From Naegleria gruberi (Eukaryota), in assembly GCA_000004985.1 (NCBI GenBank), contig GG738846.1: DNA of 64,000 bases; one strand, 5' to 3'. Positions 37,449-44,261 of the stretch are shown here, in pieces. The translations under genes were made by a program, and so were the position numbers. Below the pieces are notes generated by a model. It saw only the letters and a list, made by a program, of their open reading frames with translations. It had not been told where the DNA came from and did not search any database. Every line of letters begins with the position of its first letter. The first letter of the stretch is position 1.

Positions 37449-39140
37449 TTAAATTTTTGAAAAACTCTTAATAGGAAAACTAGAACTCGAGTAAGACAAT
37501 GAATTGTCTTTCTTTTTTTTGGATCCTGTCATGAAGGTATTATCAGAATCTTTGGCAATATCATCTTTTTTTGAAACATCACCCACCAAAATCTTTTCCT
37601 TCACATACTTTTGCATTTCTGTAGAAAATGGTTCGAGATGGCTGGAGCTATAACTACTCATATATGAGGCATTGTATACAAAGGAGTCATCCACGTGTGT
37701 ATCACCCAAAAAATCCATAGATTCAGAAAGATGACTTGCATTCAGGAATGATTCATCGCTCGTTCTTTTTTGTTTATCACTCTTTAAGGATTTTGCTGGA
37801 CTACCAAAATCTTTCAAACTTGAAGATGAATAGAGTGGACTCTTGGTCGGATTTTCATGATCAAAATTTGATTTCTCTGAATTAACAGAAATTGTGCTAT
37901 GACTCAAATGTTGTGAATTTGTTGGGACCGACTTCTTACTCGATTGGGAGCTATTTAAACGAGAGGATTGAGAACTACCTAGTCTTATTGGAGAATTAGA
38001 GATTGTTGGACTGATCATGGCTGAATATCTATTGCTATGAGTATCACTTCTGTTGGCAGATTTTTCCAGTAAACTAGAGTTTTGACCAGTTTTAGGTTGC
38101 AAGCTACTTATATTGTTTGTCATACTCTCGTTAACTTGGCTAGTGTTGGAAAATTTTGTTGAGCTTGTCAGGTTATTTTTAAGGGATGAAGTCATGTTAG
38201 AAGCTGAGCTTGATGAGGTTCTACTACTTGGATTTTGAGTGAAGAAGTTATTGGATGCGTTTAATGGAGGTTGACGAGGTTGTGGCTCTTGTTCGATATC
38301 ATGGAAATTAGATTGGTCTTGCTTTTCGGAGTGTTGAATTGATTCTTTTGAGTTGAACGAATCAACCTTATTACATACTTCTTCCAATTTTTTCAAAATG
38401 AGTTCAATAGTTTCAGATTGACTTTGAATGATTTGTTTCATTTCTCTACTTTCTACTAGTAGCATATCAATTTTTTTATCCTTTTCGAAAAAGATGGAGC
38501 TTTCTACTGACTTGTCTGTCATGAATGATGTTTCATTGTTAGCTGTGTTATTAAATTGTTCCTTCATAGATTCCTCTGTCATTCCAGTAGAATATGGAGA
38601 ATAAAAAGGTGGATAGAATGGAAAAAATTGATAAGGATTAGGATAGATAGGATATTGAGGTTCCATTTGTAATTGTCTTGTTGATTTTTTTTGTTTCGTT
38701 GTTGACTGTGGTGGGAGAGCAGTCTTTTGGTAAGTAGCACTAGGGTGAAAACCTTTGGAAGCTGGTTGAGTTTGGTGTTTAGCATGTCTGTTGTTATTGG
38801 ATTGAGTAGGACATTGTTCCTCATTATCACTCTCCTCCGAAGGATTATAAAAATGTTGGAGAATGTTTCCCCTCACTTGGTTGGCTATTGTAGAAGACGG
38901 CTTTGAAGAAGGTTTTTCTTTTTTCATTTGGTTGTGTTGCTCCATGTGCATTACCTCATACGCATCACTGTTATCCTCTTCCCCAAACAATTGTTGATCA
39001 ACTTGTTCACTAGAGAAGTAGGAAGAAAGGTTTTGTCTTGGACCGGTGTTGTGTTTTTGGTGGGGTTTCATTTTTTTTGATTTTGTTTGAATACAAACAT
39101 TTTGTAGTTGTATTCCATTGAATAGGCGCCAATTGACCAA
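37449..39140 (-). CDS. Ser-rich low-complexity protein with a central coiled coil (563 aa; true start possibly MKPHQ at about 39074)
   Basis: Long ORF with S/T/N-rich composition. No domain recognised. Confidence 0.45.
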   Translation of the reverse strand: MVNWRLFNGIQLQNVCIQTKSKKMKPHQKHNTGPRQNLSSYFSSEQVDQQLFGEEDNSDAYEVMHMEQHNQMKKEKPSSKPSSTIANQVRGNILQHFYNPSEESDNEEQCPTQSNNNRHAKHQTQPASKGFHPSATYQKTALPPQSTTKQKKSTRQLQMEPQYPIYPNPYQFFPFYPPFYSPYSTGMTEESMKEQFNNTANNETSFMTDKSVESSIFFEKDKKIDMLLVESREMKQIIQSQSETIELILKKLEEVCNKVDSFNSKESIQHSEKQDQSNFHDIEQEPQPRQPPLNASNNFFTQNPSSRTSSSSASNMTSSLKNNLTSSTKFSNTSQVNESMTNNISSLQPKTGQNSSLLEKSANRSDTHSNRYSAMISPTISNSPIRLGSSQSSRLNSSQSSKKSVPTNSQHLSHSTISVNSEKSNFDHENPTKSPLYSSSSLKDFGSPAKSLKSDKQKRTSDESFLNASHLSESMDFLGDTHVDDSFVYNASYMSSYSSSHLEPFSTEMQKYVKEKILVGDVSKKDDIAKDSDNTFMTGSKKKKDNSLSYSSSSFPIKSFSKI

Positions 39141-39217: not shown

Positions 39218-40721
39218 TTATTTAGTGAGGGCTTTTGCTCGTTCAAAGAGTGAATCCATTACAGAGTCCATATTTTCAATAGTTTCCAATGCAGCAGGAT
39301 AACATTCATCCTTCTTTGTTTCCTCATATACAATAATACAATCATTTCCTTGATCAAGAATACCATTAAGTTTGTTATCAAGAATCATTTGAGAAAGTTT
39401 TCTTTCAACTCTTGTACGAGGAAGATCAATCAATGAAGAAACGTGAGTAATTTGAACACGAGAGAATGGTTCAATAATTCTCAAAAGATGTTGTTCCAAT
39501 AAATTGTCATATAATTCTGAAAGGTGGGAACTAATAATCGGATCATTTTTCAATTCTCCTTCAAATTCAGATAATGCCTTTTCAAAAGAGTGAAGTGACC
39601 TTTCTTGATATGCAACAGAAACAGCCTTCATAGAATCAACTTCTCTACCAGTATATTTGAGAGCAGTCTTTGTACTGAGGAGTGTTTGAACATCATCAGG
39701 CTGTAAAGTTGGTAAAAAGTCATAATTATTCTAAGAATAACTTACATTATTTGTACAAACTTTACAGAGCAACATGTATTTAAGACACATGACAGCAGTA
39801 TAATCATCAAAGTTACTGTAACCTTCAAAAGCTTCAAAGAAATAAGAGAAGGCAGTCTTGTAATCCTTTTCTTCAGCATGCAATACACCAGATTGCATAT
39901 CAATTTCTGCTTGAAGGAGTGGAGGACAGTAGATAGCATTTGCATCTGTTCTAGCGGATGTGAGAGCAGCTCTTGATTTTGAAAGATTTCTAAGAGAATG
40001 GTAAACCTTACTTTCCAACAACTATAAATTATTGGCTTAATAATTATTTTTAAAGAAACAACATACGTGAATTTCAACTAACAATGCCTTGTCATCTAAT
40101 TTTCTGACTTCTCTCAATAATCTAGTAATTATTTCAAGAGATTCAGTAAATTCCTTCTTAATAAATAATAAATTGGCCAATCTTGATTCAATACGTTGAC
40201 GCAAGAAACTTCTCTTCTCAGTTGTTGCCCACTCGATAGATTCTCTACAAATTTCAATTTGAATTGCATCACTTCCTTTAATTGTACCAACTAATTCAAT
40301 AAGAGTTCTAACAATTTTTGCTGTTTTGGCCTTTGGAAGATCTTGGAAGAATGGTCGGATAGATTTGTTTAATTCCATGATGGCTTGAGCATCACTTTTT
40401 ATACTGTAAATATATTAAAAATCTATTAAAATACTAACCCTTTAGTGGCATAAATCTTACCGAGACTATAGATAGCCTCTTCCTTCTTTTTAATTATTAC
40501 TTCATTCTTTTTAGACACTATTAATTGATCAATTCAATAAATGATTAACCCGATCCGATTAATAAATATTATTATTAAAATTACTACATACTCTCCCCAT
40601 TAATTACTTGAGTAAAAAGTTTGATGGCTTCAGCAGTGTTTTGTTTTTCTTCCTCTTTTGTTGCCTTTTCAAAAAGGGTTGTATAAAACGTTTGTTGATC
40701 AGATGTTGTATTGTCAGTCAT
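39218..40721 (-). CDS. PSMD11: 26S proteasome regulatory subunit RPN6 (PSMD11)
   Basis: Five exons (about 40592..40721, 40439..40517, 40067..40403, 39746..40021, 39218..39700) with introns of about 74, 35, 45 and 45 nt. [56 protein letters not shown] and the PCI domain align with human PSMD11 over the whole length. Confidence 0.85.
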
Positions 40722-40815
40722 TTTTTACTTGTTTGAAGCTAAAATTAAAGCGAATCATAAAAATTTTATGTAATTCCAAAAATAACTTGCTATTCCTTGC
40801 AAAAACAGGCTTAAA

Positions 40816-40900
40816 AAAACAACTGGTGAGAGTCGGATTTGAACCCACGCCCTTCGTCTTAGAAAACTGTATCTCTCATTTTGTTTTAAGGTAAACTCCC
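40816..40900 (-). other. tRNA-like fragment: T-arm plus 3' acceptor half, resembling tRNA-Leu; no complete cloverleaf found
   Basis: Minus-strand reading ..GGGCGTGGGTTCAAATCCGACTCTCACCA contains a canonical T-loop (GTTCAAATCC) and a 3' acceptor strand. No matching 5' acceptor strand or D-arm lies upstream. Confidence 0.3.
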
Positions 40901-41005: not shown

Positions 41006-43078
41006 ATGAAAGGACAGAGGTCTGTGGCCCTTGCACTTGGTGGACGTTATCTGATAAGCAAAAAGACAATGTGTTGGAAGTTTGGAAAATCTATCAAGTC
41101 TACTACCTCTTCAAAAATTAAAAATCATTCGCTTGTTGCTTGCTATCACTGTAAAAAATACAACCCTTCTACCGGAACTAAATACCACCAATATTTCGGA
41201 TCATCTCTAGAGGCAGGTGTTAATTTATTGAAAAGAAAAGAAATTGAATATTTGACAAAATTACAAATTAGAAGCTATTCAACAAATAATTTATATAGTG
41301 ATACTTTTCTTTTTGATGCAGAAACATTTGCTACTAATTTAAGAATTTATTTTGAAGATCCTCCTCTTGAATTGCATGAAGAAGAAAGTGATGCTCCAGT
41401 TGAGCATCACCAACTTCCCAACGAAGAGGCACACGATAATGATATTGTTTCCCTGACAATATCAGACATTATGCCATATCAACCACATGAATTTTTCACC
41501 CAGAAGCTAAGGTACTACATTGATCATAGCTTGGAAAAAATCAAGTCACAACCAGTAGGTGTAAAGAATGCAGATGCATTTGCTTTTTTTATTAATGGAG
41601 GAAAGGGCGTTGGAAAGACTAGAAATACGATTGAAACTGTCGAAGAAATGACATTAGAATATGGTGATAGGTTTTCTAAATTAATGTATTTGTATGCTCC
41701 ATTTCTGAATATGTGCCCTCTTGCAGAGGAAGAGGAAATGTTTGGAAGAGAAGAGTTACTTAATTTTCAAAAATCAAAGAAGCTAATTACAGCACGTATG
41801 ATTTATTCATATTTTACACAATCTATTGATTCATCTGAAGTTAGATCGTATAGAGACTTTCTTGAACACTGTTATCATTTCATTCCAGACAATATCAGTC
41901 ATGTTTCAGAAATTATTAAGTATGATTTGGATCTTGATAATGATGAAAGTCTTGGTCTTTTCATAGTAATGGATGATTGTGATGAATTATTACGAGTTAA
42001 ATTTGAAAATGTAATTACTCACACACCATATAGTTTATTATTGAGAATGTACAATGAATTACCAGGGGTTTTTACAGATAGACAAAATACAACATTTATT
42101 CCAATTATGGTAGGAAAAGATATTGAAGGAATGACTCAGGATTGGATACATAAGCTTGGACCTACACGTCCAACATATTCTGGAAGCTCATATCAAAAAA
42201 ATGAAACATTTACCGTTTGCCAATTTCCACTTTTAAACCAAGATCAAGTTGAAAATATAGTTGATAACATGTTTGACCGAAAAGGACAAATTCCAATAGA
42301 AGATGAGGAAGGAACAGGACAGTTTATTGATAAGGAAAATTGGCGAGATTGCAAAAGTTTTTTAACAGCTCTCGCAATGATAGGTGGGCATCCACTTGCT
42401 CTTGAACATTTCTTACTCTTTATTGCTTCAGTACAATATTTACACAGAGACTTTTTTAATTTTCAATATGCCGTAGAGAAAACCAAATATGAGCTTAGAA
42501 AAACCTACGATCTTACAGAGTTAGGTCTTAAATGCACTGATAATCAAATAGAAAAGATTATTATTAGTCTTTTATCTGATAGACAAATACTTGAGGTGAC
42601 AGGGTACAAAAATTATGAGTTTACAAATTTTTACACTTTCATGAATTCAGGAATAATATTTCCAGTTATCAAACCGGAAGAAGACGAAGTTATAGAATAT
42701 AATAACTTTTATAATTTAGAAAGGGTTGTTAATGTACCCTTTATATTCCTTGATGAGTTAATTGAGCAAATTCCAGAGGAAAGCAAGAGTAAGGAAATTT
42801 TTAGAAATCTTGCTACCGCTCTCAAGAATCTTTTAGATTTACAATTATTAGAGGAACCAATACCTAGAAAGCAAATCAAGATTATCAACACCAAGTACTA
42901 TGATGCCATGAAAGAAGTCAAGAGAAGAGTTAGGAAACCACCAGAAACAGATATTATTCCAGTTTTTTGGAGAAATGTACCTGCAGAAACACCAGAATTC
43001 TATTCCAGTTATGTTAGACATCTTTTGTCTTGCTATTTCCATAACTGGAAGGTTGTATTAGACAAAAATTTAAAGTAA
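41006..43078 (+). CDS. STAND-class P-loop NTPase with NB-ARC-like motifs (Walker A, Walker B hhhhDD, GxP/GLPL-like) and a helical C-terminal region; no repeat domain
   Basis: Walker A FFINGGKGVGKT (about nt 41590), Walker B LGLFIVMDDCDELL (about 41950) and IGGHPLALEHF (about 42380, like the NB-ARC GLPLAL motif) occur in the order and spacing of AP-ATPases. There are about 190 aa of unrecognised N-terminal sequence. Confidence 0.55.
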   Translation: MKGQRSVALALGGRYLISKKTMCWKFGKSIKSTTSSKIKNHSLVACYHCKKYNPSTGTKYHQYFGSSLEAGVNLLKRKEIEYLTKLQIRSYSTNNLYSDTFLFDAETFATNLRIYFEDPPLELHEEESDAPVEHHQLPNEEAHDNDIVSLTISDIMPYQPHEFFTQKLRYYIDHSLEKIKSQPVGVKNADAFAFFINGGKGVGKTRNTIETVEEMTLEYGDRFSKLMYLYAPFLNMCPLAEEEEMFGREELLNFQKSKKLITARMIYSYFTQSIDSSEVRSYRDFLEHCYHFIPDNISHVSEIIKYDLDLDNDESLGLFIVMDDCDELLRVKFENVITHTPYSLLLRMYNELPGVFTDRQNTTFIPIMVGKDIEGMTQDWIHKLGPTRPTYSGSSYQKNETFTVCQFPLLNQDQVENIVDNMFDRKGQIPIEDEEGTGQFIDKENWRDCKSFLTALAMIGGHPLALEHFLLFIASVQYLHRDFFNFQYAVEKTKYELRKTYDLTELGLKCTDNQIEKIIISLLSDRQILEVTGYKNYEFTNFYTFMNSGIIFPVIKPEEDEVIEYNNFYNLERVVNVPFIFLDELIEQIPEESKSKEIFRNLATALKNLLDLQLLEEPIPRKQIKIINTKYYDAMKEVKRRVRKPPETDIIPVFWRNVPAETPEFYSSYVRHLLSCYFHNWKVVLDKNLK

Positions 43079-43086
43079 TAATATGA

Positions 43087-44052
43087 TTGATGGAGAGTAA
43101 TAGCAGAAAGATGCTGAGGGTTGAAAAGTTCATCTACAACAAATTCTTAATAAAAAAAATGTTGAATTTTAATTCTACTGTGGTCAATAATGAAATTATT
43201 CCTGCCGTTCAAAAGGTTGTACCAATAAAAGTGGCAGCCCCAAAACTTCCGAACGCTAAAATACGAGTTAGAATTTCTGATATTATCATTATTATTGGGT
43301 GGCTTGTTTGGATCGCCTTTTGTACATGGTATACATATACTGTCGTGGATAACTATCTTCAAATGCAAAATACTCCAACCACCTCTTTATCATTCAATGA
43401 GACAACAACCTTAGAGTTTCCGGCTATAACTATTTGTAACTATAATGGAAGAGCAGGAAGCTCTTGTCCAGAATGTGATCTGAACTTGGTGCGCATATTT
43501 CGATTAACAGTAACTGGAATAACTTCACCAATTACTGATGGAAACATTAGAGCTGAAAAAACTCAAGTTCTCGACAATGTATATTATTCATGTTACAAAA
43601 TTAATAATGATAAGAGTAACTTGTTTTTAGCAAAAAAGAAAGGTATTTCAGGCTCAATATCTTTTTTATTTGAAATACCAACAGGAAGTTCCTTGTCAAG
43701 AAATGGGTTGCAAGTGACATTCCATGAACCAGGAGCCACACCATCTATTTATCAAGAAACTCAATTCGCCGCCCCTGGAGTTGAAAATTACTTTTCCCTT
43801 ACAAAAGTTGTAAGAACTGTATTGGATATGAATTATGATACAAATTCTGCTGTGAGAAATGTTACTTTTGATTCAGTTGTTTCCACTATTGCTGTTACTG
43901 ATATTCCATCCAATAATGTTCTTGTAACTGTTACGTATGGTACTATGAGTGTGTATAATATCGATGAAGTTCTTACAAACACCATTCCTTCTTTATTGGG
44001 TGATGTTGCGGGTATGATTGGATTAGTAAGTAGTTTCAATTTAATTTTGTAA
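43087..44052 (+). CDS. minimal ENaC/degenerin/ASIC-family channel-like protein (2 TM, short ectodomain)
   Basis: TM1 is ISDIIIIIGWLVWIAFCTWYTYTVV. The family-hallmark post-M1 motif FPAITICN follows immediately (compare FPAVTIC). An ectodomain of about 200 aa follows with Cys pairs (CPECDLN, YYSCYK). The terminal TM2 is LLGDVAGMIGLVSSFNLIL, resembling the GxS selectivity region. The true ATG is at about 43090; the track start is a TTG. Confidence 0.55.
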   Translation: MMESNSRKMLRVEKFIYNKFLIKKMLNFNSTVVNNEIIPAVQKVVPIKVAAPKLPNAKIRVRISDIIIIIGWLVWIAFCTWYTYTVVDNYLQMQNTPTTSLSFNETTTLEFPAITICNYNGRAGSSCPECDLNLVRIFRLTVTGITSPITDGNIRAEKTQVLDNVYYSCYKINNDKSNLFLAKKKGISGSISFLFEIPTGSSLSRNGLQVTFHEPGATPSIYQETQFAAPGVENYFSLTKVVRTVLDMNYDTNSAVRNVTFDSVVSTIAVTDIPSNNVLVTVTYGTMSVYNIDEVLTNTIPSLLGDVAGMIGLVSSFNLIL

Positions 44053-44261
44053 TAATTTCAAAAATAATTTCTTGGAATAAATAGACAATGGGGCTAGATC
44101 TGCTCAAAATTTGTAGAGGTATTTTGGAAGTACCCTATGCTTTCCAAGCCAAAACTATTAAAAACATTTGGAAAATCTTCAACTAAAGTTTTTGGGGAAG
44201 TATTTGAAGCCGCGTTCTTGCAATTGTTCGAACTAAATTTTTAAATAATAAACGTTAAAAA

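What the first reader, a model, noticed from the sequence alone, without database searches (positions are those of the whole stretch)
41006..44052. NB-ARC-like STAND NTPase gene directly abutting a minimal ENaC/degenerin-like channel gene on the same strand
The upstream ORF (690 aa) has the ordered motifs of an AP-ATPase/NB-ARC STAND NTPase. These are GGKGVGKT, hhhhDDCDE and a GGHPLAL GLPL-like motif. It carries no recognisable sensor repeats or effector domain. Its stop codon (43076..43078) is only about 10 nt from the start of a 2-TM protein with the ENaC/DEG hallmark FPAITICN and a GxS-like TM2. The two ORFs are in different frames, and no intron of plausible length joins them, so they look like two cistrons with essentially no intergenic spacer. 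A nucleotide-binding switch protein tightly linked to a potential pore-former is the layout seen in sensor-effector pairs. Whether this is a functional module, a bicistronic transcript or coincidence cannot be told from sequence.
Basis: partly seen in the sequence, partly recalled or inferred. Interest (0 to 1): 0.8.

Follow-up and report, generated by a model that had tools for sequence, protein, structure and literature searches.

The report
Two unrelated neighbouring Naegleria genes
In the compact genome of the amoeba Naegleria gruberi, a lineage-specific orphan gene with ATP-binding-like motifs sits next to a small relative of animal sodium channels, but this pairing is absent in every relative checked, so it looks like chance and not a sensor-effector module.

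Summary
The window is Naegleria gruberi. Both ORFs are real, annotated genes: NAEGRDRAFT_45569 and NAEGRDRAFT_62088.

**Downstream gene.** It is a true but minimal DEG/ENaC (Pfam ASC) homologue, scoring 55-59 bits against a cut-off of 23.6. Its limits were misread. The homology-supported start is ATG 43159, 80 nt after the upstream stop. A 59-nt intron (44026-44084) leads to a second exon ending at 44186. That exon encodes the real TM2, which has G-L-D where ASIC has G-A-S.

**Upstream gene.** The 690-aa protein has Walker A-like, Walker B-like and GLPL-like strings. No profile method supports NB-ARC/STAND: Pfam, PADLOC, NCBIfam, PDB, a profile search of 1.84 billion proteins, and hhalign and hmmsearch against real NB-ARC proteins all failed. 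The family is confined to Naegleria and Willaertia. Two orthologues have Arg at the Walker lysine.

**Adjacency.**
- Three other Naegleria share CTP-transferase / 362-aa gene / orthologue / Rpb4(-).
- In Willaertia the two genes lie on different contigs.
- The other N. gruberi ASC paralogues have no such neighbour.
- No ASC homologue was detected in N. fowleri or N. lovaniensis.
- Gaps of 23-160 nt are normal in this window.

Verdict: coincidental neighbours, of low interest.

The parts
41006..43078 (+). Gene 1 CDS (690 aa), N. gruberi NAEGRDRAFT_45569 / XP_002682747. It is an orphan protein family confined to Naegleria and Willaertia.
   Evidence: ORF listed. It is 100% identical to P0001, with accessions. 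The only homologues found are P0002-P0004, P0008 and P0009. Orthologue C-termini align to the same stop.
41597..41620 (+). Walker A-like string GGKGVGKT (aa 198-205).
   Evidence: The three Gly and the Thr are invariant. The Lys is Arg in N. fowleri and N. lovaniensis (GGKGTGRT), and Willaertia has GGRGTGKT. This is the only stretch that hhalign aligns to NB-ARC at default settings.
41960..41986 (+). Walker B-like string FIVMDDCDE (aa 319-327).
   Evidence: The DD pair is invariant in all five orthologues. It follows a predicted beta-strand in the low-confidence model.
42227..42274 (+). Conserved PLLNxxQVExIVDNMF segment (aa 408-423), which resembles RNBS-C.
   Evidence: P408, L409, L410, Q414, V415, E416, I418, D420 and F423 are invariant. 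Only the greedy hhalign run places it opposite the NB-ARC 'L..Ls.ee.w.LF' segment, and that alignment is not significant.
42383..42403 (+). GLPL-like string GGHPLAL (aa 460-466).
   Evidence: It is present in four of the five orthologues (DGHPLAL in Willaertia) and missing from the N. lovaniensis gene model.
43079..43158 (+). Likely intergenic spacer (80 nt). It contains a 5-codon uORF (ATG 43083) and in-frame ATGs at 43090 and 43111.
   Evidence: Sequence. The start was inferred from the alignment with paralogue P0006. Similar same-strand gaps occur across the window.
43159..44025 (+). Gene 2 exon 1 (aa 1-289 of a 322-aa DEG/ENaC-like protein, NAEGRDRAFT_62088). It holds TM1 (about nt 43276-43344), FPAITICN (43417-43440), an ectodomain of about 215 aa, and the start of TM2 (from about 43990).
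   Evidence: Pfam ASC at 59.4 bits, E 4.5e-16. PDB profile hits to ASIC1, ASIC5 and ENaC-gamma. Hydropathy. Paralogue and orthologue alignment.
44026..44084 (+). Intron of 59 nt, GTAAGT...AATAG, phase 0.
   Evidence: Removing it restores a C-terminus homologous to P0006 and P0007.
44085..44186 (+). Gene 2 exon 2: TMGLDLLKICRGILEVPYAFQAKTIKNIWKIFN plus stop TAA (44184-44186). It completes TM2 and has G-L-D at the ASIC G-A-S position.
   Evidence: tblastn of P0006 (66.7% identity) and P0007 (50%) hits 44085-44183.

Best explanation
These are two independent, separately evolving protein-coding genes that sit head-to-tail in the gene-dense nuclear genome of Naegleria gruberi.

**Gene 2** encodes a minimal member of the DEG/ENaC/ASIC superfamily of 322 aa. 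It has a short cytoplasmic N-terminus, TM1, a reduced ectodomain of about 215 aa, and a TM2 split by an intron. By analogy with solved ASIC/ENaC structures, it most likely assembles as a trimeric cation channel in a membrane of the amoeba. Its filter is unusual (G-L-D in place of G-A-S), so selectivity and gating may differ from those of animal channels. The channel role is inferred, not shown.

**Gene 1** encodes a soluble protein found only in Naegleria and Willaertia. It probably contains a divergent P-loop (ASCE-type) nucleotide-binding core, possibly AAA+/ORC/STAND-like. It is not demonstrably an NB-ARC protein. In two species it has lost the canonical Walker lysine.

**The juxtaposition** arose through a gene-order change on the N. 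gruberi lineage, and the short spacer reflects genome compaction. Nothing indicates that the first protein regulates the second.
For: **Identity.** Gene 1 is 100% identical to an N. gruberi predicted protein.

**ASC membership.** Pfam scores of 55-59 bits against a cut-off of 23.6. The paralogues and the Willaertia homologue also pass. ASIC, ENaC and BRTNaC chains are matched at TM1/FPAxTxCN and TM2.

**Gene model.** The intron and second exon are supported by homology.

**Independence.**
- The neighbourhood CTP_transf / 362-aa gene / orthologue / Rpb4(-) is shared by N. lovaniensis, N. fowleri and a third Naegleria.
- None of those neighbours lies in this 64-kb window, and no ASC sequence lies in those loci.
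- In Willaertia magna the orthologue (contig JBEGDK010000065) and the ASC gene (contig JBEGDK010000125) are unlinked, with other neighbours.
- The second N. gruberi ASC locus has two tandem ASC genes and no gene-1-like neighbour.
- The ASC search found only N. gruberi and Willaertia proteins, whereas gene 1 has N. fowleri and N. lovaniensis orthologues.
- Orthologue C-termini end at the same position, so there is no fusion.

**Spacing.** It is ordinary for this window.

**P-loop idea for gene 1.**
- Conserved G-G-x-G-x-G-x-T-R and hhhhDD strings.
- A beta-alpha-beta pattern around both strings in the model.
- ORC/Cdc6, RAD51 and other AAA+ chains appear among weak Foldseek matches.
- Marginal Ffh/PilT Walker-A hits for the Willaertia protein.
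Against: - No transcript data were available, so co-transcription or read-through in N. gruberi itself cannot be excluded.
- The two genes are on the same strand and close together.
- Absence of ASC in N. fowleri and N. lovaniensis rests on a word-seeded protein search, not on a genome-level tblastn.
- A greedy hhalign run puts Walker A, Walker B, the PLLNxxQVE segment and GGHPLAL in the same order and register as the NB-ARC motifs. A very divergent STAND relationship is therefore not excluded.
- The structure models are of low confidence (pLDDT 31.7 and 44.4), so the fold evidence is weak either way.
Confidence: 0.8

Rival explanations
1. The pair is a functional sensor-effector module. Gene 1 would be a nucleotide-switch (STAND-like) protein that controls the adjacent DEG/ENaC-like pore-former, possibly from a shared or overlapping transcript.
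For: The genes are on the same strand with 11-80 nt between stop and start. P-loop-like motifs occur in the correct order. The channel homology is real.
Against: - The adjacency is absent in four other taxa and at the other N. gruberi ASC locus.
- Phyletic patterns differ.
- The spacing is typical for this genome.
- No STAND profile support exists.
- Gene 1 has no recognisable sensor or effector domains.
- The Walker lysine is not conserved.
Confidence: 0.05
2. The two ORFs are one gene. A short intron would remove the stop codon and fuse the NTPase-like protein to the N-terminus of the channel.
For: 39 formal GT..AG pairs of 32-299 nt join the two frames without a stop, for example 43055-43110 or 43075-43118.
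Against: - None of these pairs has the GTAAGT donor seen in the verified intron.
- All orthologues of gene 1 end at the homologous C-terminus and have no ASC sequence downstream.
- ASC paralogues and the Willaertia homologue are stand-alone, with their own N-termini.
- The public annotation keeps two genes.
Confidence: 0.02
3. Apart from the adjacency question, gene 1 is a real but extremely divergent STAND (AP-ATPase/NB-ARC-like) NTPase. It would represent a new heterolobosean clade that lacks the usual sensor repeats.
For: - Four NB-ARC-like motifs (Walker A, Walker B, L-x-P-L-x-x-x-E and G-x-P-L-A-L) appear in the canonical order. The greedy hhalign alignment places them in register.
- The motifs are conserved out to Willaertia.
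Against: - hhalign probability is 1.5%, and 6 of 100 shuffles reach the score.
- The NB-ARC HMM scores are negative.
- There are no STAND hits in Pfam, PADLOC, NCBIfam, PDB or the 1.84-billion-protein library.
- Walker A to Walker B and Walker B to GLPL distances are about twice the NB-ARC norm (from established knowledge of the family).
- K to R at the Walker lysine in two species.
Confidence: 0.25

Closest known systems
DEG/ENaC/ASIC channel superfamily (Pfam ASC, PF00858), e.g. chicken/human ASIC1, ASIC5/BASIC and ENaC-gamma, plus the small members BRTNaC1 and PDPNaC1 in the PDB
   Same: - Two-TM topology with an extracellular loop.
- The post-TM1 FP(A/G)(I/V)T(I/L)CN motif.
- Palm-like beta segments.
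- The pre-TM2/TM2 signature LLGD-x-x-G-x-x-GL.
- Pfam score above the gathering threshold.
   Different: - Much smaller: 322 aa with an ectodomain of about 215 aa and 4 Cys, against about 370 aa and many disulfides in ASIC (ASIC figures from established knowledge).
- No pre-TM1 His-Gly motif is visible.
- G-L-D (G-I-D in Willaertia) replaces the G-A-S / G-x-S selectivity belt.
- TM2b carries Lys and Arg.
- It comes from a heterolobosean amoeba, not an animal.
- There are no functional data.
NB-ARC / AP-ATPase clade of STAND NTPases (Apaf-1, CED-4, plant NLRs; Pfam PF00931)
   Same: Short strings resembling Walker A (GGKGVGKT vs GMGGVGKTT), Walker B (FIVMDDCDE vs LLVLDDVW), RNBS-C (PLLNxxQVE vs L.pLs.eea) and GLPL (GGHPLAL vs GGLPLAL) occur in the same order.
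   Different: - No significant profile, profile-profile or fold match.
- Inter-motif distances are about twice as long.
- There are no LRR/WD40/TPR sensor or CARD/TIR/CC effector domains.
- The Walker lysine is replaced by Arg in two orthologues.
Archaeal AAA+ ATPase SSO1545 (PDB 2fna) and ORC/Cdc6-type AAA+ proteins
   Different: The scores fall in the range of generic alpha/beta sandwiches. No sequence-profile match exists, and the model has pLDDT 44. This is a lead, not a membership.

Membership tests
NB-ARC / STAND NTPase | Significant match to an NB-ARC, NACHT or other STAND sequence profile | tested here: not met
   - Pfam gave no hit at E<=10.
- PADLOC gave none, NCBIfam none, and the PDB profile search none.
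- The library-wide profile search returned only orthologues.
- My own NB-ARC HMM scored -0.3 to -1.9 bits.
- hhalign gave probability 1.5%, and 6 of 100 shuffles reached the score.
NB-ARC / STAND NTPase | Walker A GxxxxGK[ST] with a conserved lysine | tested here: inconclusive
   N. gruberi has GGKGVGKT and Willaertia has GGRGTGKT. N. fowleri and N. lovaniensis have GGKGTGRT, with Arg at the lysine position.
NB-ARC / STAND NTPase | Walker B hhhhD[DE] | tested here: met
   FIVMDDCDE, with the DD pair invariant in five orthologues. On its own this feature is generic to P-loop NTPases.
NB-ARC / STAND NTPase | GxP/GLPL motif in a helical ARC1/HD1 domain, followed by a winged-helix domain | tested here: inconclusive
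   The GGHPLAL string is present and conserved in four of five orthologues. No reliable structure is available to show HD1/WHD (pLDDT 31.7 and 44.4).
NB-ARC / STAND NTPase | Multidomain architecture with C-terminal sensor repeats and/or an N-terminal effector domain | tested here: not met
   No Pfam domain of any kind was found in the 690-aa protein or its orthologues.
NB-ARC / STAND NTPase | NBD fold similarity to solved STAND structures | tested here: inconclusive
DEG/ENaC/ASIC (Pfam ASC) | Profile match above the curated threshold | tested here: met
   PF00858 at 55.1 bits for the raw ORF and 59.4 bits for the spliced 322-aa model, against a cut-off of 23.6. PDB ASIC and ENaC hits have E values down to 3e-5.
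DEG/ENaC/ASIC (Pfam ASC) | Two transmembrane segments flanking a large extracellular loop | tested here: met
   Hydropathy peaks at aa 35-63 and 278-296 of the 322-aa model. They align to ASIC TM1 and TM2.
DEG/ENaC/ASIC (Pfam ASC) | Post-TM1 FPxxTxCN motif | tested here: met
   FPAITICN at nt 43417-43440. It aligns to FPAVTLCN of ASIC1 and FPAVTFCN of ASIC5.
DEG/ENaC/ASIC (Pfam ASC) | TM2 G-A-S / G-x-S selectivity belt | tested here: not met
   G-L-D in both N. gruberi proteins aligned (this gene and P0006) and G-I-D in Willaertia sit at the position of ASIC1 G-A-S. The preceding LLGDxxGxxGL signature is kept.
DEG/ENaC/ASIC (Pfam ASC) | Pre-TM1 His-Gly gating motif | tested here: not met
   There is no HG in the 39 residues before TM1 (MLNFNST...KIRVRISD). 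The same holds for the aligned region of P0006 and P0007.
DEG/ENaC/ASIC (Pfam ASC) | Trimeric, amiloride-sensitive cation conductance | not testable with these tools
   This needs heterologous expression and electrophysiology.
Conserved sensor-effector gene pair | Adjacency conserved across related genomes | tested here: not met
   N. lovaniensis, N. fowleri and Naegleria sp. all have Rpb4(-) downstream of the orthologue. In Willaertia the two genes are on different contigs. tblastn cross-checks were negative.
Conserved sensor-effector gene pair | Co-occurrence of both partners across genomes and paralogues | tested here: not met
   Gene 1 orthologues exist in N. fowleri and N. lovaniensis, where no ASC homologue was detected. 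The other N. gruberi ASC genes have no gene-1-like neighbour, and gene 1 has no paralogue.
Conserved sensor-effector gene pair | Co-transcription or co-regulation | not testable with these tools
   No transcript data were available. A full-text search for the gene and protein identifiers found no paper.

The most novel reading that the evidence does not exclude
Gene 1 founds a previously unrecognised, highly divergent STAND/AAA+-like NTPase clade restricted to vahlkampfiid amoebae. In N. gruberi it would have been recruited next to, and co-expressed with, a non-metazoan DEG/ENaC channel whose acidic G-L-D filter gives it an unusual selectivity. That would be a lineage-specific nucleotide-switch/channel pair.
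Probability: 0.03. Interest if true: 0.7.

Novelty: already known. Interest (0 to 1): 0.15.

Why it matters
The proposed NTPase-channel module does not hold up, so little follows from it. Three modest points remain.

1. **Gene model.** The public model of this N. gruberi DEG/ENaC homologue (229 aa) lacks both transmembrane segments. The corrected 322-aa model, with an intron inside TM2, makes the protein usable for expression studies.
2. **Channel evolution.** Heterolobosean DEG/ENaC-like proteins are minimal and carry a conserved G-L-D in place of the G-A-S belt. This is relevant to how the channel family originated outside animals. From memory, ENaC/degenerin homologues in N. gruberi were already noted by Studer et al. 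2011 (Physiol Genomics). That paper is not in the held library, so I could not check it.
3. **Caution on motifs.** Gene 1 shows how ordered Walker A, Walker B and GLPL-like strings can suggest a STAND protein with no statistical support behind them.

Tried and rejected
- **Exact look-ups.** The 690-aa protein and P0006 returned nothing in the look-up of encoding contigs. I worked from orthologues and cluster members instead.
- **Structure prediction.** AlphaFold2 on the full-length protein with 4 sequences gave pLDDT 31.7, which is unusable. A second run on residues 150-530 with 5 sequences gave pLDDT 44.4. I used it only for secondary-structure pattern and weak fold hints. The afdb50 library was unavailable.
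- **PDB profile hit.** The match to BrxC-BrxB (E 0.35) aligns the P-loop to a GGSGGS linker in a fusion construct. I rejected it as an artefact.
- **NB-ARC tests.** The profile-profile test and its shuffling controls were not significant. The NB-ARC HMM with filters off gave negative scores.
- **Non-independent or uninformative contigs.** L007 is 99.87% identical to the window, so it is N. gruberi itself and not independent evidence. L006 (734 nt) is too short and possibly chimeric, so it says nothing about the downstream neighbour.
- **tRNA-like stretch.** The stretch upstream of gene 1 was not called by ARAGORN (with or without introns) or by Rfam.
- **Literature.** Searches for Naegleria DEG/ENaC and for the gene identifiers found nothing relevant in the held library. 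PubMed id 21558422 is not held.
Full report
**Origin and anatomy.** The window has about 32% G+C, is densely packed with ORFs, and has short introns. The 690-aa ORF at 41006-43078 is 100% identical to an N. gruberi predicted protein, NAEGRDRAFT_45569 / XP_002682747. The downstream ORF corresponds to NAEGRDRAFT_62088 / XP_002682748. Upstream on the minus strand lies an intron-containing RPN6 proteasome subunit gene. Downstream are two unannotated + strand ORFs.

**The downstream gene is a real DEG/ENaC homologue with different limits.**
- Pfam ASC (PF00858) matches the raw ORF at 55.1 bits (E 9e-15) against a cut-off of 23.6.
- The sequence at 44026 reads GTAAGT, and an AG lies at 44083-44084.
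- Removing these 59 nt joins GMIGL to TMGLDLLKICRGILEVPYAFQAKTIKNIWKIFN*, with the stop at 44184-44186.
- That tail is homologous to the C-termini of the N. gruberi paralogue P0006 (22 of 33 identical) and the Willaertia magna homologue P0007.
- tblastn of both proteins hits 44085-44183 as a separate segment.
- The tail read by the first stage (GLVSSFNLIL) is therefore intron read-through.
- At the 5' end, P0006 begins MNST..., aligned to MLNFNST at ATG 43159. This gives a 322-aa protein that scores 59.4 bits on ASC.
- The public model (229 aa, ATG 43363) lacks TM1 and the true TM2.
- Hydropathy gives two TM segments.
- A three-sequence profile hits solved ASIC1, ASIC5, ENaC-gamma, PDPNaC1 and BRTNaC1 chains. 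The matches fall at TM1/FPAxTxCN and at LLGDxGGxxGL-xG of TM2.
- Differences from animal channels: an ectodomain of about 215 aa with 4 Cys, no pre-TM1 HG motif, and G-L-D (G-I-D in Willaertia) at the G-A-S position.

**The upstream gene is not demonstrably NB-ARC.**
- Pfam finds no NB-ARC, NACHT or any P-loop family for the protein or its orthologues, even at E<=10.
- PADLOC, which is rich in STAND models, finds nothing, and neither does NCBIfam.
- A profile of four orthologues finds nothing credible in the PDB. The only hit is an artefactual E 0.35 match to a GGSGGS linker.
- The same profile, run with HMMER over 1.84 billion representative proteins, returns only P0002, the Willaertia orthologue P0008 and a fragment, P0009. 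The family is thus confined to Naegleria and Willaertia.
- For a direct test I retrieved 120 real PF00931 proteins and built a 60-sequence NB-ARC alignment.
- hhalign against the five-sequence family alignment gave probability 1.5% and score 23.8. Only 14 columns (Walker A) aligned at default settings.
- Six of 100 column-shuffled queries reached that score, and reversed controls scored 16.1.
- hmmsearch --max with this NB-ARC HMM scored the family at -0.3 to -1.9 bits.
- The Walker lysine is Arg in N. fowleri and N. lovaniensis.
- AlphaFold2 models had low confidence (pLDDT 31.7 and 44.4).
- Foldseek finds nothing at E<=0.001.

My reading is that a divergent P-loop (ASCE) core is likely, at about 0.6-0.65. 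A STAND relationship is possible, at about 0.25, because the greedy alignment puts four NB-ARC-like motifs in order. NB-ARC membership is untested-positive at best and fails every statistical test run here.

**The adjacency is not conserved.**
- *Orthologue neighbourhood.* N. lovaniensis (L001), N. fowleri (L002) and a third Naegleria from a metagenome (L003, the closest to N. gruberi at 66% identity) share one gene order. That order is CTP_transf-like / 362-aa gene / orthologue / Rpb4 on the minus strand.
- *Cross-checks against the window.* Translated comparison of these loci with the whole 64-kb window matches only gene 1 itself. None of the loci contains ASC-like sequence.
- *Willaertia.* In W. 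magna the orthologue (contig ...065, followed by an RCC1-like gene) and the ASC homologue (contig ...125, preceded by a RasGEF gene) are on different contigs.
- *Second ASC locus.* The other N. gruberi ASC locus (L008) has two tandem ASC genes flanked by unrelated genes.
- *Phyletic pattern.* The ASC search found only N. gruberi and Willaertia proteins, whereas gene 1 is retained in N. fowleri and N. lovaniensis.
- *Not independent.* The only other contig with the pair, L007, is 99.87% identical to the window, so it is N. gruberi itself.

**Spacing and fusion.** Same-strand ORF gaps of 23, 63, 65, 70, 78, 91, 107 and 113 nt, and convergent gaps of 11 and 25 nt, occur across the window. A gap of 80 nt, or even 11 nt, is therefore ordinary here. 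Formally, 39 GT..AG pairs could fuse the ORFs in frame. None has the GTAAGT donor of the verified intron. All orthologues terminate at the homologous C-terminus (...LLSCYFHNWKVVLDKNLK*), and ASC homologues are stand-alone.

**Conclusion.** Both genes are already in public annotation, and the ASC domain is precomputed for them. From memory, N. gruberi ENaC/degenerin homologues were reported by Studer et al. 2011, which I could not verify here. Residual value lies in the corrected gene model and in the unusual G-L-D filter of heterolobosean DEG/ENaC proteins.

Noticed in passing
window 40826-40860 (minus strand): A stretch resembling the 3' half of a tRNA (GGTTCAAATCC T-loop and an acceptor-like end) lies in the divergent region between RPN6 and gene 1. 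ARAGORN (with and without introns) and Rfam call nothing, so it may be a tRNA remnant or chance.
   Followed up: partly
window 43363-44052 versus 43159-44186: The public gene model NAEGRDRAFT_62088 (229 aa) starts after TM1 and reads into the intron. A metagenome gene call (P0130, 320 aa) starts at 43090 and also reads into the intron. The homology-supported model is 322 aa in two exons.
   Followed up: yes
L008 806-1747 and 1903-2844: The second N. gruberi DEG/ENaC locus holds two tandem, intron-less 313-aa ASC genes that are only about 27% identical to each other, followed by a thiolase gene. N. gruberi therefore has at least three ASC-family genes.
   Followed up: partly
window 41006-41215 (gene 1 N-terminus); also P0003, P0008: The first 70 residues of the gene-1 family are basic and Ser/Thr-rich with almost no acidic residues (N. 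gruberi 13 K/R vs 1 D/E; Willaertia 6 vs 1). This resembles an organellar targeting presequence. No predictor was available.
   Followed up: no
L001 11335-11380 (N. lovaniensis): The N. lovaniensis orthologue is split into two overlapping ORFs in different frames. Its gene model (P0004) lacks the GGHPLAL segment, which suggests a mis-modelled intron or an assembly frameshift.
   Followed up: no
window 39218-40724 (minus strand): An RPN6/PSMD11 proteasome lid subunit gene is split by short introns (RPN6_N, PCI and RPN6_C_helix Pfam hits on separate ORF pieces). It is transcribed divergently from gene 1.
   Followed up: partly
window 37449-39140 (minus strand): A long (563 aa) Ser/Asn/Gln-rich low-complexity ORF with no Pfam match. 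It is probably a disordered protein typical of this genome.
   Followed up: no
L006 1-210: This 734-nt metagenome contig carries the C-terminal 162 aa of a close gene-1 relative. The sequence upstream does not continue the ORF, so the contig may be chimeric or contain an intron. Its 35 nt after the stop do not resemble the N. gruberi spacer.
   Followed up: partly
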